64,000 nt of DNA from a phage. The notes below the pieces were generated by a model that was not told the DNA's origin, searched no databases, and saw only the letters and a program-made list of their open reading frames with translations. Below are positions 17,902 to 44,354 of this stretch, piece by piece. The translations under genes and the position numbers were made by a program. The first letter of the stretch is position 1. Every line of letters starts with the position of its first letter. The stretch lies in the sequence record PZ445451.1; one strand, 5' to 3'.

Positions 17902-18367
17902 TTTAACTACAATCAAGGTGTCTGATCTACCTGTAACAACATCTGTTTCAGACACAGATTATTTTGTAACAGATCAATCAGGCATCACTAAGAAAACATC
18001 ATTACGTGTTCTTCTTGCGGGTGCTGGTGTTACACGAAATCGTCTTTCTGCAAGGGGTACTGTCACAAATACCCTAGCTTTAGATATTAGCACGGCAGAG
18101 TATTTCTCTGCCACTTTATCTAGTCCAACTTGCAGTATTTCATTTAGTAATATTCCAGTTACAACTAACATTGTTCAAAACTTTACTCTATCCCTACGTC
18201 AAGGCAGTGGAGCAAATAAAGTAACGTGGCCTCAATCTGTTAAATGGAGTTTTGGTCGCGCTCCTATTTTGAGTTATAAGCAGGGAGCTACAGATATTTT
18301 TGAATTTGTTAGTTATGATAATGGAGCTACCTGGATAGGTAGTTTAGTGATGGCAGGAGTGATTTAA
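17894..18367 (+). CDS. Hypothetical baseplate/tail protein
   Basis: 157 aa ORF overlapping its neighbours by a few nt (translational coupling). Confidence 0.4.
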   Translation: MADLTTIKVSDLPVTTSVSDTDYFVTDQSGITKKTSLRVLLAGAGVTRNRLSARGTVTNTLALDISTAEYFSATLSSPTCSISFSNIPVTTNIVQNFTLSLRQGSGANKVTWPQSVKWSFGRAPILSYKQGATDIFEFVSYDNGATWIGSLVMAGVI

Positions 18368-32378: not shown

Positions 32379-34340
32379 GTGATTTTAACACGTCCAAATA
32401 GTGCCATTGCAGACATGGTAGAGTCTCGCTATAGAAAGCGTAGAAGTTTTGCAAGTGGTTTTACCTTAAGAGATGCTCGTGAAGCATTGCTCTTTGAAGC
32501 TGACGGTAACTACTATCAGTGGAAAGGTTCTCTACCTAAAGTTGTACCTGCTAACTCTACTCCTACATCTACTGGAGGGATTTCAGATACAGCTTGGAAA
32601 AATGTGGGTAATGCAGATGACATTGCTCAAATAGAATCAGAATTAGATGCTATTGAAGCTGAAATTGAAGATCTTAGAGAATCCATTCCAGAAGCTGGTA
32701 AATCAGCTTACCAGATTGCCGTAGACAATGGTTTCCAAGGTACTGAGACAGACTGGTTGGCTTCTTTAAAAGGTGATCCAGGTGCTCCATTAAAGCTGCT
32801 AGGGACGCTATCTAATACCAACCAATTACCTGCAACTGGAAACAATGCAGGAGATGCATGGATTGTAGGCGAGAATATGTATGCTTGGGATGGTACTGCT
32901 TGGAGAAAAGTAAACTCACAGGGGCCAGAAGGTAAATCTGCTTATGAAGTATGGCTTGCAGCAGGAAATGAAGGTACAGAACTAGATTATCTTGCTTCAA
33001 TTAAAGGTGATAAAGGGGAGCCTGGCCCAGAGGGGCCACAAGGTGTGCCAGGTAATAATGCTAATGGTTTTGATTACCAAGGCGCAGCTAATTCCGTTTC
33101 AGATCTTCCTTCTGCATCTCATGGAAACACATCTCAAGCATGGAGTGTTGGTACATATCTATACGTGTCAAACGGTGTAGAATGGATCAATATGGGCGCT
33201 ATAGTGGGGCCAAAAGGAGATAAAGGCGACAAAGGAGATAAGGGTAATACTGGTGATTCAGCTTATCAAGTCTGGTTAAATGCTGGTAACGTTGGTACTA
33301 TTGACGAATATATTGCCTCTCTGAAAGGAGAAAAAGGTGATAAGGGAGACAAGGGTGATCAAGGTGTACAGGGTATACAAGGCTTGACGGGGCCAACTGG
33401 CGCAGGGTTGACCATTATTGATATTCTGACTAACACTTCTGAACTACCACAAACTGGAGAAGATGGTGATGGTTATCTAATCAATAATGAACTTTGGGTC
33501 TGGTTGCAAGGAGCCACAGAGTGGACAAATGTTGGTCGTTTAGCTGGTACTCCAATCACTGCAAAAGGACACGTTGCGTCTGCAAGTGCGCTTCCTCCTA
33601 CAGCCAATTACGGTGATGCTTATCTGACGGAAGATACAGGTCATCTTTACATTTACACCTATAATGAACAAACTCAAACTGCTGAATATGTAGATATGGG
33701 TAGTTTGAAAGGTGATAAGGGTGAAAAAGGTGACGCTGGTACTAACGGTACAGACGGTGCAACTTGGATTGTTAAAACAACAGATCCAATCTCTAGTGAT
33801 GGTAAACAAGGTGATTATGCCTTTAATATCTCCACTGGTGAGGTGTTCTTAAAAACATCTGCAACTGTCTGGTCTTCTCAAGGTACACTACCTAGTATCA
33901 CAGATGCACCTAGTGATGGTAAGACTTATGCTCGTAAAGATGGGGCATGGGAAGAACTCACTAATTCTGTAGATGGTCAAGATATAGTTCCAACAAAAGT
34001 AACAACTAATTTTATAGAGGTTACAGCATATACCAACAATTCTGTTACAGGGGACTGGACACCTCCAGGAACACATAACATGAATGTGTTGAATCTTACT
34101 GGTAACGCTACTATAAAAGCATGGCCTGGTGTCGAAGATAGTACAAAACCTAAACCATTCTCTGCAATAGTTTATCTTATCCAAGATGCCACTGGAGGTC
34201 GTACTGTTACTTTAGATCCATCTTACAAAGTAATTGGTTCCAGTGATATTAATACAGATCCTAACGGAGTAACAATACTACAACTAACATATTGTGGTGT
34301 TGGTGATTACGTGGATGCTATTGTTGCTAAACGCACATAA
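32379..34340 (+). CDS. Collagen-like repeat tail fibre protein
   Basis: 653 aa; several Gly-X-Y tracts (GDKGDKGDKGNTG, GEKGDKGDKGDQGVQGIQGLTGPTG) interleaved with a repeated module SAYQ.W..AGN.GT..DYLAS.KG; GTG start with AAAGGAG RBS. Confidence 0.65.
   Translation: MILTRPNSAIADMVESRYRKRRSFASGFTLRDAREALLFEADGNYYQWKGSLPKVVPANSTPTSTGGISDTAWKNVGNADDIAQIESELDAIEAEIEDLRESIPEAGKSAYQIAVDNGFQGTETDWLASLKGDPGAPLKLLGTLSNTNQLPATGNNAGDAWIVGENMYAWDGTAWRKVNSQGPEGKSAYEVWLAAGNEGTELDYLASIKGDKGEPGPEGPQGVPGNNANGFDYQGAANSVSDLPSASHGNTSQAWSVGTYLYVSNGVEWINMGAIVGPKGDKGDKGDKGNTGDSAYQVWLNAGNVGTIDEYIASLKGEKGDKGDKGDQGVQGIQGLTGPTGAGLTIIDILTNTSELPQTGEDGDGYLINNELWVWLQGATEWTNVGRLAGTPITAKGHVASASALPPTANYGDAYLTEDTGHLYIYTYNEQTQTAEYVDMGSLKGDKGEKGDAGTNGTDGATWIVKTTDPISSDGKQGDYAFNISTGEVFLKTSATVWSSQGTLPSITDAPSDGKTYARKDGAWEELTNSVDGQDIVPTKVTTNFIEVTAYTNNSVTGDWTPPGTHNMNVLNLTGNATIKAWPGVEDSTKPKPFSAIVYLIQDATGGRTVTLDPSYKVIGSSDINTDPNGVTILQLTYCGVGDYVDAIVAKRT
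33220..33365 (+). repeat. In-frame tandem 9 bp repeats (GAT AAR GGN) encoding collagen-like Gly-X-Y tracts
   Basis: Repeated gataaaggcgacaaaggagataagggt-type units inside the fibre gene. Confidence 0.6.
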
Positions 34341-34379: not shown

Positions 34380-37199
34380 ATGTATCCTATTCCTCTATTT
34401 ATGTCAACAACACCAGCTTCAGTAGTAACAGCTACATCTATAACTACTTCCTCTATTGGTATTGCAATAGTTGGTGGTAAAAAACAACTGACATACACAG
34501 TTACACCGGAAGATGGTGCATTATTTGATATAGCTTTTTCATCTTCAGATAATACCAAAATGGTTATAGATAATAGTGGTATGATGGAGTTTGTTGCCGA
34601 AGGTGGTTTTGATGCAATAATGACAGCTAAAAATAATTTAGGTGCTGTCTTAACTGATCAATCTGGTGGTTATGCTTCAGAATTAAGTGTGTACACTGAA
34701 AGTCTATCGGCTATGGATGTAGGCACTACTCAACAGTTAGTTGCTACAATCAGTCCAGAAGGTGCTAAAGACCTTCCAGATATGGTAATTACATACACCA
34801 CAACAGATCCAGAAGTAGCTACTGTAAGCCCTACAGGGTTAATAACTGCTCTTAAAGATGGCGGTTGCCGTATAGGTTGTACTGCAACGTATCAAGGAAC
34901 AGTTGTGGCCTCTGATAGGTCTTATTTAGGTGTTAATGCTATTCCTGTTATTTCTAATGTAACAGCCGTGGCAAACAGTTATGGAGACGTTCGTGTTGCT
35001 TGGGATGTAACTGATCCACTAGACGGTGATACTTATACTGTAGAAGTATTAGATTTAAGTGATAATAGTGTTCAGTGGACTACAACAACCACGAATACTC
35101 ATGCTTACTTTGATATCTCTGACTCTATTCCTCTTTATGGGTTTGCTCCAACATACCTTAAAATTAGCGTTAAGAGCACCAAAGCAGCAGCCGTTATCTT
35201 TAATAACTCAATAGCTACAGATGATTCATTCATTAAAGAAGTTATTGTCTTTGCTGGACAAGATAACGTAAATGCACACTTTACAGAACTATCTGGTGCA
35301 AATAAAGCAGCAATGAGTAGCACAACAGCCCGTAATGCATATGCTGCGCAACGTGGTTTAGCAAATGCTGAAGTTCTTCCGTTAAATACAGCTTCTGGAT
35401 CATCAGCAGCAGATAAATATGCTGACGATAAAGCTGGAACAGGTACACCAGACAATTACTGGTATGATCTGGATAACACAGCAGATGGGCCATGCTTAAC
35501 TAACTTTATCACTAAAGTCACACCTTATGCAAGTAAGGTTAAAGCAATTATTTGGGGACAAGGTGAAAATGATGCTGTATCAGCATCTTCGACTGTTGCA
35601 GGTAGGTACAGTAACACTACACGTTACCATGATGCTACGATAGCTATCTTTGATAAGATGCGTACAATAGTTCCTGCTTCTCAAGCAAAAATTGTTTGGC
35701 AGATCCTAGGACGTTCTTATTTATATGGTGTAGAAGTTAATGGTGTGGATTGGCAGAAGTACAGAAATGTACAAAGAACCATCTCTACAGCACGTGATGA
35801 TGTTATCATTGGTTCTTGGGTAGATGGTGCTGAACGTTACAGTGGCTATGTTTATGAAGAAGGTATTGATGGTCGTATCCATTATGTTTCTTCTGTATAC
35901 CAAACAGCAGCTACAAAACTTGCTAAATCGGCAGCAGACGGTACAGACTTAACATCAACGTCACCTGTTTGGGTTGATATGGCTGTTCCAACTGGAGCAA
36001 CAGCCACTTCCCAATCTAATCAAGATACAATTTTAGCATGGGATGCTCAAGGCTATAGTAAACACTACTTCCGTAATATTAACGTCTTAACCGCATCTGT
36101 ATTAACTGAACAAACGCTTAATACGAACAGTTATACGTTTACCTATGCAGATCAAGTAGAACAATATGGTTTTGCAGCAGGAACTGCTATATTTGATGTT
36201 GCATATTATGACGAAGCAAATGATGTGTTATCTCCTTTAGTACGTTTTAATGTTAATATTACAGCAGGAACCGAAGAAGATAAACCTGTCGTGATGGACT
36301 ATGATTTGACGCAAGAAACTCTCCCATCAGATGTTAAGGTTAATGGTGGGAACTCTTTTGCTCGTGCCTCTGGAGATAAACTTGTAGCCACTAACACCTT
36401 GGTTGCCCCGTTGGAGTATGTTGGTACTACCCCTGTAGGTAGACGTGTAACAGCTAACACAGCTACACAAATTTTTGTCAACAACGCCTTAACAAGTGCA
36501 AGCCCGTGGGTAAAGACCAACTTAACTGTTGCAGCTTCATCTGATAACTCTCCGGCTGGAACTACTGCTAATGTATTCAAATTAACTCCGACTACAACCT
36601 CTGGTAGTCATATCTTAACTGCAACATATACTAACGCGTACAACATATCTGCCGGACGTAACTGGTCTGCCTCTGTTTTCTTGAAAGCGAACGGGATTAC
36701 TAAGGCCAAACTAAGATTAAAAGCAGGAACTGAAGTTAATGAGGGTACTTTTGATTTAGCAGCAGGTACATTCACAGGAAGTGAAGCTAATATTATATCT
36801 ATGGGCAACGGTTGGTATCGTGCTATTCTGCATAAAACAGGGATAGCCAAACAGTCCTCCATAAGTTTTGAAATAATTGCCTTGGATGCAACTGGTGCGG
36901 AGATTTTCGCTGGAAATGGTACTAGTAACCTTGCAGTTTGGTTGCCACAGCTTGAAGGTGCTTCTACAGGAGAAACATCAAAAGCTGGATCGCCTTATGT
37001 CTGCACATATCCTGGAAATTTAGGAGGAGTATCCTTCACTATACCAAGGAACGGACATACTGGTGTGGATGTTTACTATTCCAACGGAGACGTTGTTCGT
37101 GACGTATTCTCTGGTACGGCATCTACTTGGACAATAAACTACTCCAGCTTGTACGATTGGGGATCAGTCTTTATTACAGGTTTGAAATATTACGACTAA
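34380..37199 (+). CDS. Tailspike/tail fibre with two Big_2 Ig-like domains and a SASA-type carbohydrate esterase domain
   Basis: 939 aa; N-terminal Big_2-like repeats (TQQLVATISPEGAKD...ATVSPTGLITALKDG); GQDN(V) and WGQGENDA motifs resemble the GQSN / QGESD motifs of sialate-O-acetylesterase-type domains; C-terminal beta-rich region. Confidence 0.55.
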   Translation: MYPIPLFMSTTPASVVTATSITTSSIGIAIVGGKKQLTYTVTPEDGALFDIAFSSSDNTKMVIDNSGMMEFVAEGGFDAIMTAKNNLGAVLTDQSGGYASELSVYTESLSAMDVGTTQQLVATISPEGAKDLPDMVITYTTTDPEVATVSPTGLITALKDGGCRIGCTATYQGTVVASDRSYLGVNAIPVISNVTAVANSYGDVRVAWDVTDPLDGDTYTVEVLDLSDNSVQWTTTTTNTHAYFDISDSIPLYGFAPTYLKISVKSTKAAAVIFNNSIATDDSFIKEVIVFAGQDNVNAHFTELSGANKAAMSSTTARNAYAAQRGLANAEVLPLNTASGSSAADKYADDKAGTGTPDNYWYDLDNTADGPCLTNFITKVTPYASKVKAIIWGQGENDAVSASSTVAGRYSNTTRYHDATIAIFDKMRTIVPASQAKIVWQILGRSYLYGVEVNGVDWQKYRNVQRTISTARDDVIIGSWVDGAERYSGYVYEEGIDGRIHYVSSVYQTAATKLAKSAADGTDLTSTSPVWVDMAVPTGATATSQSNQDTILAWDAQGYSKHYFRNINVLTASVLTEQTLNTNSYTFTYADQVEQYGFAAGTAIFDVAYYDEANDVLSPLVRFNVNITAGTEEDKPVVMDYDLTQETLPSDVKVNGGNSFARASGDKLVATNTLVAPLEYVGTTPVGRRVTANTATQIFVNNALTSASPWVKTNLTVAASSDNSPAGTTANVFKLTPTTTSGSHILTATYTNAYNISAGRNWSASVFLKANGITKAKLRLKAGTEVNEGTFDLAAGTFTGSEANIISMGNGWYRAILHKTGIAKQSSISFEIIALDATGAEIFAGNGTSNLAVWLPQLEGASTGETSKAGSPYVCTYPGNLGGVSFTIPRNGHTGVDVYYSNGDVVRDVFSGTASTWTINYSSLYDWGSVFITGLKYYD

Positions 37200-37200
37200 T

Positions 37201-37230
37201 AAAAAAGGAGCCATTAGGCTCCTTTTCTTT
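37201..37230. terminator. Bidirectional terminator at the convergence of + and - transcription units
   Basis: Stem ggagcc / ggctcc with loop atta, flanked by aaaaaa on one side and ttttctttt on the other. Confidence 0.65.
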
Positions 37231-37234
37231 TATC

Positions 37235-37666
37235 TTAATCAGTGAAAATTACGCTTACATCTTCTTTAGAAAAGAGTTTATGATCTTCACCTTTTGTCTC
37301 AAGAGTTTCATACAGGTTAAGAAGTTCTGAAACATCTTTCTCTACCAGTTTCTTCAATGTTGCAATTTTCTGTTTGCGATTCTTAATACGTTCAGCTACA
37401 ACCTTACGTTGGTATCCAGCAGTACGATAACCTGAGAAAGTTACACCAGTGAGACTTGCAGTTACAGGATCGTAATGACGTTCAATCTGAAATTTATTAA
37501 AAGGTACAGCGTCATCACGAATAATCTTACCGCCATTACTTACTTGACGAAGACCAGTAACTTGTTCCAGTCGTGCCATAGAAATCTTTGGAGATAGACC
37601 AGAATCCAGGTTCATACCGTTGTTAATCAGTGCTTTCAGGGTGATTTTGCTGTTCAGTGTACTCAT
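37235..37666 (-). CDS. Hypothetical protein
   Basis: 143 aa ORF; GGAGG about 9 nt upstream of the ATG; 5' end overlaps the 3' end of the methyltransferase gene by about 44 nt. Confidence 0.45.
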   Translation of the reverse strand: MSTLNSKITLKALINNGMNLDSGLSPKISMARLEQVTGLRQVSNGGKIIRDDAVPFNKFQIERHYDPVTASLTGVTFSGYRTAGYQRKVVAERIKNRKQKIATLKKLVEKDVSELLNLYETLETKGEDHKLFSKEDVSVIFTD

Positions 37667-38354
37667 TTAGTCGTTCCTCCGCTTGCTTAAAAATATTTAC
37701 ATCGGCTTCACAGCCTAAGTATTCTCTACCTGTTAAAAGTGCCGCAACTTGTGTTGTTGCACTTCCAGAGAAGAAGTCTAAGATTACATCTCCTTCGTTG
37801 GTATGTATATTAATAAGGTCACAAAACAAAGTCAAGTGTTTTTGTGTTGGATGAAAACGATCTGCTCCTTGATAGATAGGATACTCAAACACACCCTTAT
37901 GGTAGGAAGCATTGAAGGTTGGCTTCGAACCTTTAACACAAACAATAGCCATCTCTTTAGCGTTACTAAGATAGTTAACACCGCTGTTGATGGGTACAGG
38001 GTTTGTTTTAATCCATTCAATAGTACGGAACATACGAAAACCAAGCGGTTCAAGGATTTCACGTAGCTCCTGGATCTTCCAGATATCATACCAAACTATG
38101 CAAGTACCACCTTTTCTAAGCACCCTATAGGCTTCTTTGAATACTTCTTTAAAGTAAGGAATATCTACAACATCCCAATCACCAAAGTTGTAAGATACAC
38201 GGAATCTATCTGTATCTTTTCCAGTAGGCTCTCCAGATTGAAAATTTGTGTCACGAGAAATAGCATATGGTGGATCAGTAAGAATCAAATCTACACTATT
38301 GCTTTCGAGGGTTTGCAGGTAGTTTAATGCGGTGTTGTTTACAAATTCGCTCAT
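37623..38354 (-). CDS. DNA methyltransferase (beta-class N6-adenine/N4-cytosine amino-MTase), orphan
   Basis: 243 aa; N-terminal DPPY catalytic motif followed by a C-terminal AdoMet-binding motif (DFFSGSATT) in the beta-class order; no restriction endonuclease gene adjacent. Confidence 0.7.
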   Translation of the reverse strand: MSEFVNNTALNYLQTLESNSVDLILTDPPYAISRDTNFQSGEPTGKDTDRFRVSYNFGDWDVVDIPYFKEVFKEAYRVLRKGGTCIVWYDIWKIQELREILEPLGFRMFRTIEWIKTNPVPINSGVNYLSNAKEMAIVCVKGSKPTFNASYHKGVFEYPIYQGADRFHPTQKHLTLFCDLINIHTNEGDVILDFFSGSATTQVAALLTGREYLGCEADVNIFKQAEERLNEYTEQQNHPESTD

Positions 38355-38371
38355 TATATCTCCTTCAAAGA

Positions 38372-38393
38372 AAAGGAGCCGTTAGGCTCCTTA
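38372..38393 (-). terminator. Hairpin terminator, near-identical copy of the 37201-37230 hairpin
   Basis: Stem ggagcc / ggctcc with loop gtta; a U-rich tract follows on the - strand; lies between the SSB and methyltransferase genes. Confidence 0.5.
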
Positions 38394-38414
38394 TATTTAC
38401 ACAATATTTAATTA

Positions 38415-39362
38415 TTAGAAACAGTGCAGGAAGTTTCGACCATACTGCAAACCAATAGGAGCAAATGGGATATCATCATCGAAATCTTGAACAACAGGTT
38501 CTGGTTCTTTCGGTGCTGGCTCTTTCTTCTCTACTTTTTTAGTTTCTTTCTTAACTTCTTGTACTGGGATAGACATTCCACGGATAGCAGCAGCTACTTT
38601 ATCAGACAAAGCAAGAACTTCACGAGCAGCTTCAATAATCTCTTCTGCCGTTACAGTTTTACCTGTATGATCACGACAAGCGTTAAGAATTGCGTGTCCA
38701 ACTGAAGCACCAAGATCATAGTCAGTTACATCAACGCCACGATCTTTAGCAATTTCAGCTTTCAGAGTAACAGTTGCAGATTGTACCACACCAGCCAAGT
38801 CGAAAGCATCACCTTTCACACCAGCACGTAGAAGCTCCAGAGCGCCGTTTACAGCGTGTCCTGTTTCAATCCCTACGGTATCACGTTTTTTGTAGTTAGG
38901 CTTGCTACCGTCATTATTAGAGGGCTTATTTCCACCTTTTGAAGAGGATTGTGCTTGCTGAACACCTTCTGTTGAAAGAATAGTGATTTTACCTTTAGAG
39001 GAATTATAGTATGTTTTGCCATTCCATTCAGAAGGTTTAACATCCATAGTTAGTTCTACACCTTTTTCGATAGTAACCCATTTATCACCATCTTTAACTT
39101 GCAGGTTTTCATGTTCTGGGTGCAGTTTAACTTCACCTAAGCTAACCCAAACACCTTTATCATCAGCACCAGCACCTTTCTCTTTAATAAGCAGAGATGC
39201 TTTGTGAGTTGATTCAATTTTCTTATCTGGTTGACCTGCAACCTTAATATAAGAGACTTTCATTTCATCAAACTTATCCAGTTTGACATATTCAACGATA
39301 CCTTCAGCCCAGAATGCTTCTTTTTTAGTACGACGGTCGATTTCAGAATTAATTACTGGCAT
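38415..39362 (-). CDS. ssb: Single-stranded DNA-binding protein
   Basis: 315 aa; ends with the acidic amphipathic tail DFDDDIPF characteristic of SSBs; sits in the replication module. Confidence 0.6.
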   Translation of the reverse strand: MPVINSEIDRRTKKEAFWAEGIVEYVKLDKFDEMKVSYIKVAGQPDKKIESTHKASLLIKEKGAGADDKGVWVSLGEVKLHPEHENLQVKDGDKWVTIEKGVELTMDVKPSEWNGKTYYNSSKGKITILSTEGVQQAQSSSKGGNKPSNNDGSKPNYKKRDTVGIETGHAVNGALELLRAGVKGDAFDLAGVVQSATVTLKAEIAKDRGVDVTDYDLGASVGHAILNACRDHTGKTVTAEEIIEAAREVLALSDKVAAAIRGMSIPVQEVKKETKKVEKKEPAPKEPEPVVQDFDDDIPFAPIGLQYGRNFLHCF

Positions 39363-39378
39363 AAATTCTCCTCTATAA

Positions 39379-39777
39379 TTACATTACTTTAACACAAAAC
39401 TCTCGTAAAAGAGTAGCGTCAGTTTCTTCCAACAGGTATTTACCAAGACCAATACCAAATCCTATTTCACCACTTTCAAAATGGAGGATTTGTATCTTTT
39501 CTCCACCAAGGTTAATTACTTTTGCTTTTCCAGGATTATCCAAAACATCTCGTATTGTATCCTGTAGTAACATAAGCTCACGTTTTGTGATAGTGGTTTC
39601 AGATATCTCTTTGTTTTCTACTCTCACTGTTAAACGATTGTATCCACCAAAGAGACATAGTATTTGAATAAAAAAGGTATTATCTTGAGGTTCAACATCT
39701 TTTTTAGTTAGTTCAAGACGATTAGTTTCTCTACTGTAGAACGTCTCGACTAAGATTTTAGAACGATTATCTGTCAT
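39379..39777 (-). CDS. Hypothetical protein
   Basis: 132 aa ORF on the replication-module strand. Confidence 0.4.
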   Translation of the reverse strand: MTDNRSKILVETFYSRETNRLELTKKDVEPQDNTFFIQILCLFGGYNRLTVRVENKEISETTITKRELMLLQDTIRDVLDNPGKAKVINLGGEKIQILHFESGEIGFGIGLGKYLLEETDATLLREFCVKVM

Positions 39778-39820: not shown

Positions 39821-40435
39821 TTAAATCTTAAATTCTTCGTTGTTAAGTGAATCCAGTGTACGTACTTCTGGTTCTTTGGGGATGAAAACGTCTTTTACAA
39901 AGCGGAACATAGGGAAACGTTCTGCCATTTTACGGACGTGTGCTTCTTTACCTGTGTAGCGGTGATTAATAGTACAAATATTAGTTTTCAGCGCAAATTC
40001 AAAATCTGGATGATATACATAATTTTGACCATCCCAGTAACACAGGCAAATAGCTACGTCAAAGTTCCATACGATTTCACTGCGTACACCTTCTTCCATG
40101 ATCATAAAGTTAAACTTAAGATCTTTATAGTATGCTTCAAATACCCATTTCAAATGTGGTAGTTCGGCATAAGTGTGTTCTGTTTGCTTAGTAAGTTGTT
40201 TAACATTACGTGCACCAACACCCAACATCAAAAATTTCTCTACTAGTACGAGTGTATTGTGGTTAGGCATACGCAAGTAAATATCAATATCTTGCGCAGG
40301 TTTCTCTAATCGCCAATCACGTACAGCGCCGCCAGCTACAATTGCAAACGGATCTACCAGTTGGCACATACGTAATACTTCTAAAGCTCGTACTTTTTGA
40401 TCTTCAATATTCATATTTTCTCCTATCGTTTCCAC
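39821..40435 (-). CDS. Minimal nucleotidyltransferase related to the CCA-adding enzyme / poly(A) polymerase head domain
   Basis: 204 aa; motif FAIVAGGAVRDW...DIDIYL matches the pol-beta-type NTase signature of CCA-adding enzymes (GGaVRD...DhDh); far shorter than full-length CCA enzymes. Confidence 0.55.
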   Translation of the reverse strand: METIGENMNIEDQKVRALEVLRMCQLVDPFAIVAGGAVRDWRLEKPAQDIDIYLRMPNHNTLVLVEKFLMLGVGARNVKQLTKQTEHTYAELPHLKWVFEAYYKDLKFNFMIMEEGVRSEIVWNFDVAICLCYWDGQNYVYHPDFEFALKTNICTINHRYTGKEAHVRKMAERFPMFRFVKDVFIPKEPEVRTLDSLNNEEFKI

Positions 40436-41010
40436 TCTTTGTGTTGTTCTACATGCTCAAGCATTTCATTATATAGTGCTTTAAGATGTGGAACAACTCT
40501 TTCATCTTCAGTTTCAAAGAATTTTGTAAGCTGCTCTGCTTTAGCTTTCAACCAGCAAAGATGCGCTTCAATTTCAGTATTAAAACGTCCCAGCGTTTTT
40601 ATGCGACTGTCTACTTTTATATTGGCTTTGTATTTATTACGATCTTTTTCGTAACTACATCCCACCATAGTCCCATGAGATCTTTTACTTACTCTATAAG
40701 CTAAGAACTTATTAAGATCTCCTGTTACTAAAAGACAGGTATTGGGAGAGTAAACTCTCCCTCCTATAATATCTTTATCAAGTTCTAAGTTTTCCCAGTC
40801 ATCCCAAGTTTGCAACCAGGAATAGAAATTGGAGAACAACTTCCATTCTTCACAAACTGTCACCCCATTATAACAAGGATCACGTTCTTGTTGACAAGGG
40901 GAGTAACACCTCCCCAACATAGACATCCATTTCATATAAGCAGGGTGCATAGTTCCTCTAGGAGATCTTACAGTAAAATCTCCATCAAAAATACCATGAC
41001 CATATACCAT
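40423..41010 (-). CDS. Putative homing endonuclease with AP2-like DNA-binding domain
   Basis: 195 aa; AP2-like block (KYKANIKVDSRIKTLGRFNTEIEAHLCWLKAKAE); Cys/Trp-rich N-terminal region; free-standing gene directly downstream of the polymerase. Confidence 0.4.
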   Translation of the reverse strand: MVYGHGIFDGDFTVRSPRGTMHPAYMKWMSMLGRCYSPCQQERDPCYNGVTVCEEWKLFSNFYSWLQTWDDWENLELDKDIIGGRVYSPNTCLLVTGDLNKFLAYRVSKRSHGTMVGCSYEKDRNKYKANIKVDSRIKTLGRFNTEIEAHLCWLKAKAEQLTKFFETEDERVVPHLKALYNEMLEHVEQHKEWKR

Positions 41011-41039: not shown

Positions 41040-44000
41040 CTAATGACAACTGGCCCATGAGTTACCAACATCGTACCCAGCAGTGAGAGGTACATTAAGA
41101 TTGTAATACTCACCAGCTTTATTAACAGCGATAGATGCTAATTCTCCAGCACGACTGTAGGCTGTAAACCAACCACCTTTCGGAGATTCATGTACGTTCG
41201 CCCAAATCTTGCCAGTACGTTTCTCTTCCTCTTCTTTCCAGGCATTAACTTTATCCAAACATTCTTTATCAATTTTCTTTTGTTCTTCTGGATCATCAAC
41301 TTGAGTCCAACCTAAAGATTCTTTAGAGAACCATTTAAAATGCACCAGATCACGAGTTACTTCAAGTTGTGCTTCATCGTGATATGCAATCATTTGTTGA
41401 ACGAATGACTTATTTTTCCAGTCATCAACAAAAAAGTCAACAGCTAATCCTTCTTCTTCGATAAGATCGTCGTAGATAACCATTGCTCTTTTTGCACAAA
41501 TAACACCACCACTCTGGAACAGAGAGTTAAGTATTGCGTGTGCAGATCGTGTAGGTACTTTTCTACCATCAATACCGAGAATGTATTTCTTACCTGTTTT
41601 AACCCAAAAGTCATGCAGACGTTCTTTAAGAAGCGCAAGAGGTTTTGCAGCTTCCCAGAAAGCATCGTATACAAGCTGTCCTGTATACATATCACTACCT
41701 ATAGTTTTTGCTACTTTTGCAGCTTGAGCACCATAAGTAATACCATACTTAACAGATTTAGCAGGGCTTCGTTCAAACTTACGACCAATAGTGTCAGAAA
41801 TACGTCGAGCCATCATTGTATGAACATCATTAGGTTTTTCCAATAATAGAGCATTACAATATTCGTGTGGTTCCTGCTCGTACCGCCAACAATTCCCTGT
41901 AATCGTGATGCAGTCTTTCTGACGCATAACCCATGTACCGAGTTCTGTTTGTGGACACCAAACATCTTCTACACCCCATTCTTCAATAGTCAGACTTTGA
42001 ACAGGGATGTGAGAGCGGTTAGCCAACGTTGCCACTTTTACTTTCTGGTCTTTCGTATTGAAGGCTACAGAAATATTACCCCCATGAACCAGGTATGAGG
42101 CAGTTAAGGCTGCTTCAAAAAGTTCTCCTGGGTTCTGCGCCCAGCGCCAAACAGGTTTTTGTTTATGTTTGTGCCAGTAACCATCCGCAATCAAAAAACC
42201 TTCCAAGAAAGCCACACGCTCGGCATGAGACATATTAACTACACGTTCTACCCACGGAACATCCCATTTACCTTGTTGAACAGAAGTTAAACTATTTACT
42301 TGATCTTGTTCCATGTTAAATGGAGCATTACAAATAATGTTATCTCCTGTGCAAAGCTCGGCAGTTGTTCTGACTTTAGGCACATAAGTATTCCCTGTAC
42401 TACGAGTATTAACATACCAACGGTGATCTGCTGTTGCACGATAAGTATGGGATTTTCCTTTAATCTCAAACGTCTTACTATTTTTATAGAAGACCTTACC
42501 TTTTACTTTAGTCCATTCTTTAAGTCCTGTTTCTGGGTTATATCCTAAGATTTCATCCCCTTCTTGTAGATCGTGATAACCAACCCAACCTTTACGGGTT
42601 AGTGCTTGTGCATCCATAGGTACACAGTAGTGTGATTCTATTTTTGCCTCAAGAGAATCAAAGTCATAACCAATTTGGAAGTATTTTGGAACTTCTACAC
42701 CAAATAAGTTACGCATTTCATATCCGTACAGAGATGTTACACGTGGGATATTTGCTACTAACCTATGTTTCATACGAGATGTAGCTGCATCACACGTTGC
42801 AGCAGGAGTTGGTATACGACCATCAGCCCTTACTGCTGCCAGATAACCTTTATCGTAATCCTCTTCATCTTCTTCCCAATCAGCACCACCACCTAGAATA
42901 GAGTTCCTACGGTGTTTATACGTAAGATACTGCACAATCTGCGTAGCATAAGGAAACTTTTCACCCAGTGCTTCCAAGTTAGGACAAATATCTTTCTCTT
43001 GCCCTTTTGTAAAGGAAGGGTTCGTAAGCACTTTAACACCACGACCTTTAGCTTTAGCAATACGATCTCTTAGTTTCCATTCCAAAGTTTCTGGTGTGCA
43101 CTCCAGATGATCACATCTGTCCTGGCAGAAGTTAGATGCTAACGTTTGATCAACATAGTCACGAATAGCTTTCTCCATTTGTGCTTCATCTTTCTTAATC
43201 TTAGTGCCAGATTTAAGAGTGATATCTTTATCTTTGTATTCAGATGGACTCCAACCTAAACCAACTAACCAGTTTTTAATATGTGTAGTGTCGTCTAAAG
43301 TAGCAGGTACTGTAGGATCACAAATAGGTTCTTCTGCTGGAATAGGGAGTTTAAACTCTTTACCTAAAGCAAATAACCACCAACCATCTTCTTTTTGTAC
43401 AAGTTCACCAGAATGTTTCTCTGCAAACTTTATCATGTTACTTGAAGGTTCACCATTCTTTTTAAACTGTAGTTTAGGTGGAATGAATGATTTCAAATAA
43501 CCTTTGGTAGCAGGTTTAGGAGGTAGCACAGGTTCTGCCTCTAAACGACATGCTTCCATTCGAGCATCCAGATCACGAATATTATCTTCTGCTTGTTTCA
43601 TATTGAAAGCAAAGCCACGGTGCTCTTGACGTGTAATAATATCAGCTACACGTTGTTCTAAGTTAAATGGTTCAGACCACTTATTATAATCACCCCACTC
43701 TTCCATCAAATAACGGAACACTGCGGTGTTAGCTTTGTTATCGTAAATACAGTAATACAGCATATCTGCTGCAAATGTTTTAAATCTTTCAGTTTCAGGG
43801 ATGTTTTTTCTAAAATCAATTTTAACATCCCCTCCAGCTTTCTTAGATAACTCTGCCAGACTATGACCACCGAAGCGATCAGGGTTTAGTGTCTTACTTA
43901 AGATCATAGTATCACAAATTTCAATGTTACTATTACCCCAAGTATTGTACTTAATACTGTAGTTGAGTTTAAAAAATAATTTAATTGCCAGTAAGTCGAA

Positions 44001-44354
44001 GTTAATGATGTTGTGTCCAACTACTTTGGTAATTTTATAGTTTGAATTACCTTTAAATTTACCTGTTCCATTTACAAAATCAGGAAAATCTTTAAGAGGG
44101 AAATGGGTATATTCTAAATGCTCATATTCCTCCAATCGGTATTCATACTTTCCGTCAGTCTCAATATACGGACGACCATCGAAAAGATATTTATCACCAT
44201 CATGGAAAGCAATAATCTCTCCAGTATCATGACTTTCGCACACAATACAGTGCATTGCAAAACTATCTTTTAAACGATATGGACTTGCCAAGTAATCTAC
44301 ACTTTCGTCATTAAGCAAGTTGTTACTTTCAATGTCGAAAGTAAAAGCTCCCAT
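41040..44354 (-). CDS. DNA polymerase, family A (3'-5' exonuclease + polymerase), intein-containing
   Basis: Exo I FDIES and Exo II HNIINFD motifs; motif A DFDSLEAKIESHY interrupted right after HY; motif B-like KSVKYGITYG; motif C-like YHDE; strong AAGGAGGG RBS. Confidence 0.8.
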   Translation of the reverse strand: MGAFTFDIESNNLLNDESVDYLASPYRLKDSFAMHCIVCESHDTGEIIAFHDGDKYLFDGRPYIETDGKYEYRLEEYEHLEYTHFPLKDFPDFVNGTGKFKGNSNYKITKVVGHNIINFDLLAIKLFFKLNYSIKYNTWGNSNIEICDTMILSKTLNPDRFGGHSLAELSKKAGGDVKIDFRKNIPETERFKTFAADMLYYCIYDNKANTAVFRYLMEEWGDYNKWSEPFNLEQRVADIITRQEHRGFAFNMKQAEDNIRDLDARMEACRLEAEPVLPPKPATKGYLKSFIPPKLQFKKNGEPSSNMIKFAEKHSGELVQKEDGWWLFALGKEFKLPIPAEEPICDPTVPATLDDTTHIKNWLVGLGWSPSEYKDKDITLKSGTKIKKDEAQMEKAIRDYVDQTLASNFCQDRCDHLECTPETLEWKLRDRIAKAKGRGVKVLTNPSFTKGQEKDICPNLEALGEKFPYATQIVQYLTYKHRRNSILGGGADWEEDEEDYDKGYLAAVRADGRIPTPAATCDAATSRMKHRLVANIPRVTSLYGYEMRNLFGVEVPKYFQIGYDFDSLEAKIESHYCVPMDAQALTRKGWVGYHDLQEGDEILGYNPETGLKEWTKVKGKVFYKNSKTFEIKGKSHTYRATADHRWYVNTRSTGNTYVPKVRTTAELCTGDNIICNAPFNMEQDQVNSLTSVQQGKWDVPWVERVVNMSHAERVAFLEGFLIADGYWHKHKQKPVWRWAQNPGELFEAALTASYLVHGGNISVAFNTKDQKVKVATLANRSHIPVQSLTIEEWGVEDVWCPQTELGTWVMRQKDCITITGNCWRYEQEPHEYCNALLLEKPNDVHTMMARRISDTIGRKFERSPAKSVKYGITYGAQAAKVAKTIGSDMYTGQLVYDAFWEAAKPLALLKERLHDFWVKTGKKYILGIDGRKVPTRSAHAILNSLFQSGGVICAKRAMVIYDDLIEEEGLAVDFFVDDWKNKSFVQQMIAYHDEAQLEVTRDLVHFKWFSKESLGWTQVDDPEEQKKIDKECLDKVNAWKEEEEKRTGKIWANVHESPKGGWFTAYSRAGELASIAVNKAGEYYNLNVPLTAGYDVGNSWASCH
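41892..42626 (-). mobile_element. Intein (about 245 aa) with LAGLIDADG homing-endonuclease motif in the polymerase motif A region
   Basis: Starts with Cys after ...IESHY (CVPMDAQALTRKGW); block B TADHRWYV; LAGLIDADG-like VAFLEGFLIADGYW (about 42180-42209); ends ...ITITGN followed by Cys; extein resumes CWRYEQEPHEY...DVHT, aligning with family A sequence after motif A. Confidence 0.7.

What the first reader, a model, noticed from the sequence alone, without database searches (positions are those of the whole stretch)
37623..38354. Orphan beta-class amino-methyltransferase with no partner endonuclease
The DPPY catalytic motif precedes the AdoMet-binding motif, the beta-class order, and no restriction enzyme gene is adjacent. 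It probably methylates the phage genome for protection against host restriction. The downstream ORF overlaps its 3' end by about 44 nt, which is unusual and could reflect a frameshifted or fused accessory domain.
Basis: partly seen in the sequence, partly recalled or inferred. Interest (0 to 1): 0.35.

Follow-up and report, generated by a model that had tools for sequence, protein, structure and literature searches.

The report
Phage methylase with disarmed restriction-enzyme partner
This coliphage gene is an intact DNA adenine methylase, probably specific for CATG, and the small gene overlapping its end is a conserved remnant of the matching NlaIII/IceA-type restriction enzyme that has kept its front domain and lost its nuclease, so the methylase is not a true orphan.

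Summary
The window is Escherichia phage PaulScherrer (Bas60, Justusliebigvirus). The ORF at 37623-38354 (-) is an intact 243-aa beta-class N6_N4 methyltransferase, with DPPY at residues 27-30 before FSGSA at 195-199. The 44-nt overlap with the downstream 143-aa ORF is exact.

"No partner" is only half right. In bacteria, 32 of 72 assessable homologues (44-57% identical) sit directly upstream of an IceA/NlaIII-family HNH restriction enzyme, which recognises CATG. The phage's downstream ORF is homologous to the N-terminal half of that enzyme (hhalign 96%, E 3e-9; BLASTP E 1e-10 to a full-length phage-borne member). It lacks the HNH half entirely.

The methylase plus small ORF travel together, overlapping by 4-44 nt, in eight divergent phage lineages with different flanking genes. 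Both genes are under purifying selection. The overlap is translational coupling across a variable methylase tail, not a frameshift or fusion.

CATG is the most depleted of all 256 tetramers in the window (84 observed, 211 expected). It is also depleted in most other module carriers, but not in the related phages rV5 and phAPEC8, which lack the module.

The CATG specificity, the actual methylation and the role of the small protein are inferred, not shown. I rate this a new variant of a known kind, of moderate interest.

The parts
37623..38354 (-). Beta-class N6-adenine DNA methyltransferase, 243 aa (bas60_0039; phi92 gp155 equivalent)
   Evidence: PF01555 E 3.8e-30. phrog_67 E 8e-56. PADLOC MTase_II E 1.4e-46. 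Closest solved structure is 5hek, M1.HpyAVI, E 1.4e-28. dN/dS 0.08-0.10 against relatives.
38265..38276 (-). Catalytic motif IV, D-P-P-Y (residues 27-30)
   Evidence: Read from the sequence. D27, P28 and P29 are invariant in alignment A1.
37752..37778 (-). AdoMet-binding motif I region, DFFSGSATT (residues 193-201)
   Evidence: D193, F195, G197, T200 and T201 are invariant in A1. The region lies after motif IV, which is the beta-class order.
37953..38021 (-). Highly conserved central block IEWIKTNPVPINSGVNYLSNAKE (residues 112-134), the presumed DNA-contact/target-recognition region
   Evidence: E113, W114, K116-P121, N123, S124, Y128, L129, N131 and E134 are invariant between the phage and the IceA-linked bacterial homologues. 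The role in DNA contact is inferred.
38360..38365 (-). Shine-Dalgarno sequence AAGGAG of the methylase, 5 nt before its ATG
   Evidence: Read from the sequence.
37623..37666 (-). 44-nt overlap: the variable C-terminal tail of the methylase (residues 229-243) and the N-terminus of the small ORF, in different frames
   Evidence: The tail after ERLN is not conserved in length or sequence. Overlaps of 4-44 nt occur in relatives.
37675..37680 (-). Shine-Dalgarno sequence GGAGGA of the small ORF, inside the methylase coding sequence, 8 nt before the ATG at 37666
   Evidence: Read from the sequence.
37235..37666 (-). 143-aa ORF (bas60_0038; phrog_20244; phi92 gp154 equivalent): nuclease-less homologue of the IceA/NlaIII restriction enzyme
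   Evidence: hhalign Prob 96.1, E 3e-9, with controls scoring at most 15.4. Reciprocal HMM hits. BLASTP E 1e-10 to the full-length ICEA protein P0193. dN/dS 0.18-0.20. AF2 model with pLDDT 89.
37373..37630 (-). Residues 13-98 of the small ORF: the stretch aligned to residues ~46-133 of ~245-aa IceA/NlaIII enzymes. Predicted as two helices, a loop and a beta-hairpin, resembling a winged helix.
   Evidence: Foldseek matches to TFE-alpha, MarR and HTH proteins, and to a giant-virus 'ICEA1', are weak (E 0.05-1).
37511..37558 (-). Most conserved motif of the small-ORF family, TGLRQVSNGGKIIRDD (residues 37-52), shared as NG..(W/I).R.D with IceA enzymes
   Evidence: G38, Q41, S43, N44, G45, I48, I49, R50 and D52 are invariant or nearly so. 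These columns are aligned.
37292..37420 (-). Predicted 43-residue helix (residues 83-125) in the position occupied by the HNH nuclease half; possible dimerisation helix
   Evidence: AF2 secondary structure, pLDDT 93-97. The small ORF has no Cys at all, against 8 Cys in the HNH half of P0193. Dimerisation is inferred.
38373..38392 (-). Terminator-like hairpin AAGGAGCC-TAAC-GGCTCCTT followed by a T-run, between the upstream 315-aa gene and the methylase
37203..37226 (+). Terminator-like hairpin AAAAGGAGCC-ATTA-GGCTCCTTTT between the convergent tail-fibre gene and the small ORF. Its stem is nearly the same as that of the hairpin at 38373-38392.

Best explanation
The two overlapping genes at 37235-38354 (-) form a phage-adapted derivative of an NlaIII/IceA-type Type II restriction-modification operon. 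(1) The 243-aa protein is an active beta-class N6-adenine methyltransferase. During infection it methylates the phage's own DNA, most probably at the A of CATG (structure of the enzyme shown; activity inferred). (2) The 143-aa protein is translated from a start inside the methylase's variable tail, so the two are translationally coupled. It descends from the N-terminal, winged-helix-like domain of the cognate HNH restriction enzyme. The nuclease half has been replaced by a long helix, so it most likely binds DNA, probably as a dimer at or near CATG, without cutting it. (3) I think the pair most likely acts as a narrow counter-measure against CATG-specific restriction, with the methylase marking sites. 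The nuclease-less reader may occupy unmethylated sites, assist the methylase, or poison related host enzymes. (4) Carriers of the module have additionally purged CATG from their core genes. Shown here: gene structure, family membership, homology of the small ORF to IceA N-domains, linkage of the two genes, purifying selection, CATG depletion. Inferred: CATG specificity (about 0.7), DNA binding by the small protein (about 0.6), and its anti-restriction or accessory role (about 0.35).
For: Methylase: a full-length PF01555 match with all motifs intact, and 5hek as the closest structure.

Bacterial context: 32 of 72 assessable GTDB loci carry a PF05315 ICEA gene directly downstream on the same strand, and no other recurrent partner was found. 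IceA1/NlaIII enzymes are CATG-specific HNH enzymes (PMC4202330; title of the cited reference Xu et al. 2002; PMC2441816).

Phylogeny: phage methylases with the small partner form one clade nested among the IceA-linked bacterial ones.

Small ORF homology to IceA N-domains:
- hhalign Prob 96.1, E 3e-9, score 61.5, against at most 15.4 for reversed and shuffled controls.
- The ICEA HMM hits every phage small ORF at E 1.8e-7 to 1.3e-3, and nothing else in the 64-kb window.
- BLASTP gives 37% identity over 76 aa, E 1e-10, to P0193. P0193 is a full-length ICEA enzyme that follows a PF01555 methylase with a 4-nt overlap on a phage-like contig.

Linkage: eight divergent lineages with unrelated flanking genes keep the methylase followed by the small ORF, overlapping by 4-44 nt.

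Selection: dN/dS is 0.18-0.20 for the small ORF and 0.08-0.10 for the methylase.

Fold: the AF2 model has pLDDT 89 and a winged-helix-like fold plus a long helix.

CATG: O/E is 0.40, the lowest of all 256 tetramers, z about -8.8. Other module carriers pooled give O/E 0.30, rank 1 of 16, against 0.85 and 0.86 in rV5 and phAPEC8. The remaining CATG sites are concentrated in the HNH gene, the polymerase intein and the variable tail fibres.
Against: - There are no methylation data for any Justusliebigvirus.
- Identity to the IceA-linked bacterial methylases is only 44-57%. Forty of 72 bacterial homologues have no IceA neighbour, so specificity could have drifted.
- CATG depletion is not universal among carriers: L084 has O/E 0.73 and L085 has 0.96. 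Depletion is also not what simple protection by methylation predicts.
- No IceA-type enzyme was found on sequenced plasmids, and none was looked for in E. coli chromosomes, so the supposed enemy in E. coli is unidentified.
- Foldseek matches to DNA-binding folds are weak, E at least 0.05.
- The small ORF occurs without an adjacent methylase in Pseudoalteromonas phage J2-1, and after a non-PF01555 ORF in L093. It may therefore act independently of the methylase.
Confidence: 0.6

Rival explanations
1. Plain orphan methylase. The methylase alone protects the phage DNA. The downstream ORF is an unrelated small phage gene, or a decaying leftover with no role connected to the methylase.
For: No intact endonuclease is adjacent. 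Forty of 72 bacterial homologues are also solitary. The small ORF occurs without an adjacent methylase in phage J2-1.
Against: Homology of the small ORF to the cognate enzyme's N-domain is significant and reciprocal. The pair stays together across eight lineages whose flanking genes differ. A dN/dS of about 0.2 and identity down to about 35% with conserved motifs rule out a decaying pseudogene.
Confidence: 0.15
2. Complete phage-borne restriction-modification system. The 143-aa protein still cuts unmethylated CATG using a non-HNH active site or a recruited nuclease. The phage uses it against host or rival-phage DNA while its own DNA is methylated, as chlorella viruses do with CviAII (my recollection).
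For: The methylase-first operon order and translational coupling are typical of RM systems. A sister phage-like contig carries the full-length HNH enzyme in the same position. Depletion of a genome's own recognition site is the classical signature of genomes that carry the corresponding restriction enzyme (established knowledge), and CATG is strongly depleted.
Against: The whole HNH half is absent. The protein has no Cys and only two His. It matches no nuclease fold or family in Pfam, PADLOC, PDB or BFVD. No ICEA-like HNH half lies anywhere else in the window.
Confidence: 0.1
3. Regulatory pair. The winged-helix-like small protein is a transcription or replication regulator that reads the methylation state of CATG-containing operators. 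Under this reading the methylase serves as an epigenetic timer rather than as anti-restriction.
For: The best structural neighbours are MarR, TFE and HTH regulators. With CATG depleted, few sites remain and they could act as signals. The module lies at the end of the replication-gene block, bracketed by two hairpins.
Against: The structural matches are weak. The remaining CATG sites sit mostly inside mobile or variable coding regions rather than in intergenic regions. There is no CATG within or next to the module itself.
Confidence: 0.15
4. The methylase has a specificity other than CATG, for example GATC as the GenBank label 'Dam-like' implies, or GAGG-type like M1.HpyAVI.
For: The record annotation. 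The closest solved structure is deposited under the name 'DpnA'. A different BASEL phage methylase, from Bas51, methylates GATC (PMC12548924). Identity to the IceA-linked enzymes is only about 50%.
Against: It is not in the Dam family: it matches PF01555, not PF02086. The only recurrent bacterial partner is the CATG enzyme family. GATC is not depleted (O/E 0.93), whereas CATG is the most depleted tetramer. No close homologue exists in phages outside Justusliebigvirus, so the Bas51 result does not transfer.
Confidence: 0.25

Closest known systems
NlaIII / HpyI (iceA1-hpyIM) Type IIP restriction-modification systems, CATG-specific, with an HNH endonuclease of Pfam family PF05315 ICEA
   Same: Bacterial homologues of the methylase sit directly upstream of PF05315 enzymes. 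The phage small ORF is homologous to the N-terminal half of those enzymes. The gene order is methylase then R. CATG is the sequence that is depleted.
   Different: The phage 'R' lacks the entire HNH nuclease and zinc-binding half. The methylase here is a minimal 243-aa beta-class enzyme; whether it is related to M.NlaIII or M.HpyI themselves was not tested. The module sits in a lytic phage, not in a cell.
M1.HpyAVI of Helicobacter pylori (PDB 5hek/5hfj, deposited as 'DpnA')
   Same: It is the closest solved structure (E 1.4e-28, aligned over residues 19-238). It has the same minimal beta-class architecture of about 230-240 aa with DPPY first and FxGxG last.
   Different: Identity is only about 30%. 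From my recollection of the literature, its specificity is of the GAGG type. It has no IceA-like partner.
Orphan DNA methyltransferases of lytic phages (e.g. T4/T2/P1 Dam; Bas51 GATC methylase, PMC12548924)
   Same: A phage-encoded adenine methylase with no working endonuclease, presumed to self-methylate the phage genome.
   Different: It belongs to a different family (beta-class PF01555, not the Dam families). It keeps a conserved, translationally coupled remnant of its restriction enzyme. Its predicted target is CATG, not GATC.
Virus-encoded complete RM systems, e.g. chlorella virus CviAII (CATG), from my recollection, and the phage-like contig L092 found here
   Same: A virus carries the methylase gene and the R gene head-to-tail with overlapping stop and start. 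L092 has a PF01555 methylase followed by a full-length ICEA enzyme with a 4-nt overlap.
   Different: In the window the R gene has lost its nuclease.
Truncated iceA1 alleles of H. pylori
   Same: NlaIII-like genes that have lost endonuclease function next to a retained methylase. A full-length ORF was found in only 10 of 49 iceA1 strains (PMC3261200).
   Different: Those are recent, variable frameshifts or truncations within one species. The phage form is an old, conserved family with a defined domain boundary, a new C-terminal helix, and evidence of purifying selection.

Membership tests
Beta-class N6-adenine DNA methyltransferase (Pfam PF01555 N6_N4_Mtase) | Significant full-length match to the family profile | tested here: met
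   E 3.8e-30, 105.9 bits against a cut-off of 26.7, profile positions 1-221 of 221.
Beta-class N6-adenine DNA methyltransferase (Pfam PF01555 N6_N4_Mtase) | Circular permutation: catalytic motif IV (D/S-P-P-Y/F) lies N-terminal to AdoMet motif I (FxGxG) | tested here: met
   DPPY at residues 27-30 and FSGSA at 195-199.
Beta-class N6-adenine DNA methyltransferase (Pfam PF01555 N6_N4_Mtase) | N6-adenine rather than N4-cytosine chemistry | tested here: inconclusive
   By established knowledge, DPPY rather than SPPY favours m6A. The best PDB matches are adenine enzymes (E 1e-28), against N4C enzymes at E 1e-8.
Beta-class N6-adenine DNA methyltransferase (Pfam PF01555 N6_N4_Mtase) | Methyltransferase activity on DNA | not testable with these tools
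   Requires methylome sequencing or an in vitro assay.
Dam family (as the GenBank label 'Dam-like' implies) | Alpha-class architecture (PF02086 MethyltransfD12, or the T1-type Dam family) and GATC specificity | tested here: not met
   No PF02086 hit, and the motif order is beta-class. GATC O/E is 0.93. Specificity itself was not tested.
Type III RM Mod subunit (label used in some related records) | A Mod of about 600 aa with a Res helicase-nuclease partner | tested here: not met
   The protein is 243 aa. PADLOC gives MTase_II at E 1.4e-46 against MTase_III at 3e-12 over 65 residues only. No Res gene lies nearby.
NlaIII/IceA-type Type II RM system | The methylase belongs to the lineage whose members pair with PF05315 enzymes | tested here: met
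   32 of 72 assessable bacterial loci have this pairing, and the phage clade is nested among them.
NlaIII/IceA-type Type II RM system | An adjacent gene homologous to the IceA/NlaIII endonuclease | tested here: met
   hhalign E 3e-9, reciprocal HMM hits, and BLASTP E 1e-10 to P0193. The match is to the N-terminal half only, and it falls below Pfam's own reporting threshold.
NlaIII/IceA-type Type II RM system | HNH (beta-beta-alpha-metal) catalytic domain with its Cys-rich zinc sites in the endonuclease | tested here: not met
   The alignment stops at residue 98. The protein has no Cys and no D-H...N...H motif. No ICEA C-terminal half occurs elsewhere in the window. The module is therefore not a functional member of this system.
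NlaIII/IceA-type Type II RM system | CATG recognition | not testable with these tools
   Indirect support only: the partner family, and CATG O/E of 0.40, the lowest of all 256 tetramers.
Winged-helix DNA-binding proteins | Helix-turn-helix plus beta-hairpin wing fold, with significant structural similarity to known members | tested here: inconclusive
   The AF2 topology fits, but the Foldseek E-values are 0.05-1.

The most novel reading that the evidence does not exclude
Phages have domesticated the sequence-reading domain of a restriction enzyme. The nuclease-less IceA/NlaIII N-domain protein, co-translated with its cognate methylase, would be a CATG reader. It would act as a previously undescribed kind of anti-restriction or epigenetic device, by shielding unmethylated sites, guiding the methylase, or poisoning host NlaIII-like enzymes through mixed dimers. 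Its activity on the phage's own DNA would then be what drives the extreme CATG depletion seen in carrier genomes.
Probability: 0.3. Interest if true: 0.7.

Novelty: new variant of a known kind. Interest (0 to 1): 0.5.

Why it matters
Phage "orphan" methylases are usually annotated and then ignored. Here the neighbouring "hypothetical protein" (phrog_20244, phi92 gp154) turns out to be a conserved, selected derivative of the matching restriction enzyme without its nuclease.

This has four consequences:
- It gives a testable specificity, CATG, for a methylase present in all phi92-like therapeutic-candidate coliphages and mislabelled as "Dam-like" or "Type III Mod".
- It may explain why these phages look unprotected against the standard E. 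coli RM panel: none of the systems I believe that panel contains (my recollection; not checked in the paper) recognises CATG.
- It offers a natural example of a restriction enzyme's front domain, presumably its DNA-reading domain, surviving as a stand-alone protein. That is of interest both for phage counter-defence and for engineering CATG-binding modules.
- The co-occurrence of the module with strong CATG avoidance is an unexplained genome-wide signal that experiments could resolve.

Tried and rejected
- **Frameshift or fusion reading of the overlap.** Rejected. Both ORFs are intact in 56 related genomes and in diverged contigs, no fused homologue appeared among the best 120, and the small ORF has its own GGAGGA RBS.
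- **Alternative later start for the small ORF.** An ATG at codon 18 would remove the overlap. Rejected, because the N-terminal helix is conserved in relatives and the upstream ATG has the strong RBS.
- **Transfer of the Bas51 GATC result (PMC12548924).** Rejected. That methylase is from a Vequintavirus. This gene has no close phage homologues outside Justusliebigvirus: the identity bands were at least 95%, or below 60%.
- **Search for published methylomes of phi92-like phages.** None was found, including in the Durham collection paper, which does not mention phage Paula.
- **A solved structure for IceA/NlaIII.** None in the PDB by sequence.
- **Split nuclease hypothesis.** The HNH gene at 40423-41010, and the HNH gene next to the J2-1 homologue, do not match the ICEA profile.
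- **IceA-type enzymes on plasmids.** One weak partial hit in Priestia, and none in enterobacteria.
- **PADLOC and Pfam on the small ORF.** No hits.
- **Recurrent partners among the 40 bacterial loci without IceA.** None found; the neighbours are heterogeneous.
- **One script timed out** and was rerun in parts.
Full report
**Identity of the window.** Bases 36500-39500 are 100% identical to Escherichia phage PaulScherrer (BASEL Bas60, MZ501100.1), genus Justusliebigvirus, the phi92-like phages. Window coordinate 1 corresponds to record coordinate 676. The finding is CDS bas60_0039, annotated "Dam-like N6-adenine methyltransferase". The overlapping downstream CDS is bas60_0038, annotated "hypothetical protein".

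**Check of the observation.**
- The ORF at 37623..38354 (-) encodes 243 aa.
- It matches PF01555 N6_N4_Mtase end to end (E 3.8e-30), phrog_67 and PADLOC MTase_II (E 1.4e-46).
- DPPY occupies residues 27-30 and the AdoMet motif FSGSA residues 195-199. This is the beta-class order, and both motifs are invariant among homologues.
- The closest solved structures are the minimal beta-class adenine methylase M1.HpyAVI (5hek, E 1.4e-28) and CcrM.
- The downstream ORF at 37235..37666 (-) overlaps the methylase by exactly 44 nt. A GGAGGA lies 8 nt before its ATG.

The sequence-level observation is therefore correct.

**The overlap is not a frameshift or a fusion.**
- The methylase core ends at about residue 231 (…ERLN). 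The last 12-20 residues vary in length and sequence among homologues.
- The small ORF's reading frame, by contrast, is conserved across the overlap.
- Both ORFs are intact, at 98.6-100% amino-acid identity, in 56 Justusliebigvirus records.
- None of the 120 best homologues of the methylase is longer than 252 aa.
- In diverged relatives the same two genes overlap by 4, 17, 29, 32 or 44 nt.

This is the usual signature of translational coupling.

**What partners this methylase family in cells.** A 56%-identical bacterial homologue, P0068, is followed by a PF05315 ICEA gene. I then scanned one genome per GTDB species and recovered 75 loci that are 44-57% identical to the phage methylase.
- 32 loci have an ICEA gene directly downstream on the same strand.
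- 3 loci are cut off by a contig end.
- 40 loci have no ICEA gene and no other recurrent neighbour.

IceA1 and NlaIII are CATG-recognising enzymes (PMC4202330; title of the cited reference Xu et al. 2002). NlaIII is classified in the HNH superfamily (PMC2441816). In a neighbour-joining tree, IceA-linked and solitary bacterial methylases are interspersed. The phage methylases form one clade nested among them.

**The downstream ORF is a remnant of that restriction enzyme.** A tblastn of the small-ORF family against the bacterial loci gave weak hits that fell inside the ICEA genes. I followed this up in several ways.
- Profile-profile comparison of the small-ORF alignment (23 sequences) with 33 ICEA proteins gives probability 96.1%, E 3e-9, score 61.5. 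It aligns residues 13-98 of the phage protein to residues ~46-133 of the ~245-aa enzymes.
- Reversed and column-shuffled controls score at most 15.4, with E at least 0.14.
- The ICEA HMM hits all phage small ORFs at E 1.8e-7 to 1.3e-3, and hits nothing else. The reverse search hits six ICEA proteins.
- In the whole 64-kb window, the small ORF is the only ORF of 40 aa or more that matches the ICEA profile, and only its N-terminal half matches.
- An exhaustive HMM search of 1.84 billion representative proteins found 46 hits. Almost all are 100-143 aa.
- One hit, P0193, is a full-length ICEA protein: 206 aa, PF05315 at E 1.6e-16, with eight Cys in its HNH half.
- P0193 is encoded on a phage-like 47-kb contig directly after a PF01555 methylase that is 46% identical to the window's methylase. 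The two genes overlap by 4 nt.
- BLASTP of the window's small ORF against P0193 gives 37% identity over 76 residues, E 1e-10.

The phage protein has no Cys, no HNH motif, and nothing that aligns to the nuclease half.

**Predicted fold of the small protein.** The AlphaFold model (pLDDT 89) shows two helices, a loop carrying the family's most conserved motif (SNGxKIIRDD), a beta-hairpin, and then a 43-residue helix. Foldseek finds only weak similarities, at E 0.05-1. These are to winged-helix and HTH proteins (TFE-alpha, MarR, RTP) and, in the viral library, to an "ICEA1" protein of a giant virus. DNA binding is therefore plausible but not established.

**The two genes form a mobile module.** The methylase followed by the small ORF is found in eight divergent lineages:
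- the window itself;
- L002 and L003, whose methylases are about 80% identical to the window's;
- L082, L083 and L084, at 64-68% methylase identity;
- L085 and L086, further metagenome contigs in which the small ORF again directly follows this methylase.

In L082-L084 and L086 the surrounding genes (ribonucleotide reductase, PhoH, thymidylate synthase/DHFR) are entirely different from those in the window.

dN/dS is 0.18-0.20 for the small ORF and 0.08-0.10 for the methylase wherever dS is not saturated. There are two exceptions to the linkage. Pseudoalteromonas phage J2-1 has the small ORF with no adjacent methylase. A short contig, L093, has it after a 176-aa ORF that is not PF01555.

**Independent support for CATG.**
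- CATG occurs 84 times in the window against 211.5 expected from a second-order model. That is O/E 0.40, z about -8.8, the lowest of all 256 tetramers.
- Other module-carrying phage loci pooled give O/E 0.30, rank 1 of 16 palindromes. The individual values are 0.00, 0.08, 0.14, 0.16, 0.48 and 0.73; a further carrier, L085, shows no depletion (0.96).
- The related coliphages rV5 and phAPEC8, which lack the module, give 0.85 and 0.86.
- Within the window the remaining sites are densest in an HNH gene (5.1 per kb), the polymerase intein (5.4 per kb) and the variable tail fibres (about 3.5 per kb). The overall density is 1.3 per kb. This fits long-term purging from core genes.
- GATC is not depleted, at 0.93.

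**Interpretation.** The methylase is almost certainly functional and most probably methylates CATG. It is not Dam-like in family, and it is not a Type III Mod.

It is "orphan" only in the sense that no nuclease is present. Its neighbour is a selected, nuclease-less derivative of the cognate restriction enzyme. I consider a CATG-reading, non-cutting accessory protein to be the most likely role for that neighbour. It might shield sites, assist the methylase, or act as a dominant-negative against related host enzymes. This step is inference.

The BASEL study found these phages "exceptionally susceptible" to the RM systems it tested (PMC8594841). I recall that panel as EcoKI, EcoRI, EcoRV and type III systems, but I did not check this in the paper. 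If so, a CATG-only protection would be compatible with that finding.

Why carriers also avoid CATG is unexplained. Three possibilities are pressure from CATG enzymes in natural hosts, a legacy of a full RM ancestor like the one in L092, or a cost imposed by the reader protein itself.

**Literature.** I found no published methylome or functional study of this gene pair.

**Verdict.** Its interpretation is partly right on the class of enzyme and the likely self-methylation. It is wrong on the absence of a partner and on the suggestion of a frameshift or fusion. I classify the feature as a new variant of a known kind, an RM-derived phage module with a disarmed R subunit. Interest is 0.5.

Noticed in passing
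window 1-64000 (all 84 site positions are listed): CATG is the most under-represented of all 256 tetramers (O/E 0.40). The surviving sites cluster in the HNH gene at 40423-41010, the polymerase intein at 41889-42623, and the variable lateral tail-fibre genes at 18367-21243 and 32379-34340. This suggests those segments are recent arrivals in a CATG-purged genome.
   Followed up: partly
window 38415-39362 (-): This 315-aa protein (phrog_4477) is annotated 'hypothetical' here and as a single-stranded DNA-binding protein in some related records. It contains DFDDDIPF, which I recall as the E. coli SSB C-terminal tip motif. Unusually, the motif is followed by 15 more residues (APIGLQYGRNFLHCF).
   Followed up: no
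window 39821-40435 (-): A 204-aa nucleotidyltransferase-like protein (phrog_1614; weak PolyA_pol head hit). Its homologues in L002 and L003 carry a weak precomputed hit to PF26128 Gad2, which I recall as the anti-Gabija protein family. It could be an anti-defence gene.
   Followed up: no
window 40423-41010 (-): A 195-aa ORF annotated 'hypothetical' matches phage HNH endonuclease families (phrog_953, E 7e-75). It overlaps the upstream gene by 13 nt, is absent from the syntenic position in L002 and L003, and is CATG-rich, which suggests a mobile homing-type endonuclease. It does not match the ICEA profile.
   Followed up: partly
window 37203-37226 and 38373-38392: Two terminator-like hairpins with nearly the same stem (GGAGCC…GGCTCC) bracket the two-gene module. 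The first lies between convergent genes and could act in both directions.
   Followed up: no
L094 (Pseudoalteromonas phage J2-1, MF988720.1) 2480-2893; L093 719-1096: Members of the small-ORF family occur without the PF01555 methylase. In J2-1 there is no adjacent methylase. In L093 the small ORF follows a 176-aa ORF with only a sub-threshold EcoRI_methylase hit. The protein may therefore function on its own, or with other methylases.
   Followed up: partly
L092 2255-3621: A phage-like 47-kb metagenome contig, with gyrase/topoisomerase genes and many small ORFs, carries a seemingly complete methylase plus full-length IceA/NlaIII pair with a 4-nt overlap. It looks like a virus-borne CATG RM system and the likely ancestral state of the window's module.
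   Followed up: partly
phage records MG065689.1, MG065645.1, MG065656.1 (hits H27, H106, H107): Records labelled 'Campylobacter phage' with host C. jejuni are 99.3-99.6% identical in these proteins to E. coli Justusliebigvirus phages. The host label is probably wrong, or the samples were contaminated.
   Followed up: no
window 41040-44354 (-): The DNA polymerase gene is interrupted by an intein (41889-42623, as annotated in the record). The polymerases in L002 and L003 are 854 aa, so they appear to lack the intein.
   Followed up: no
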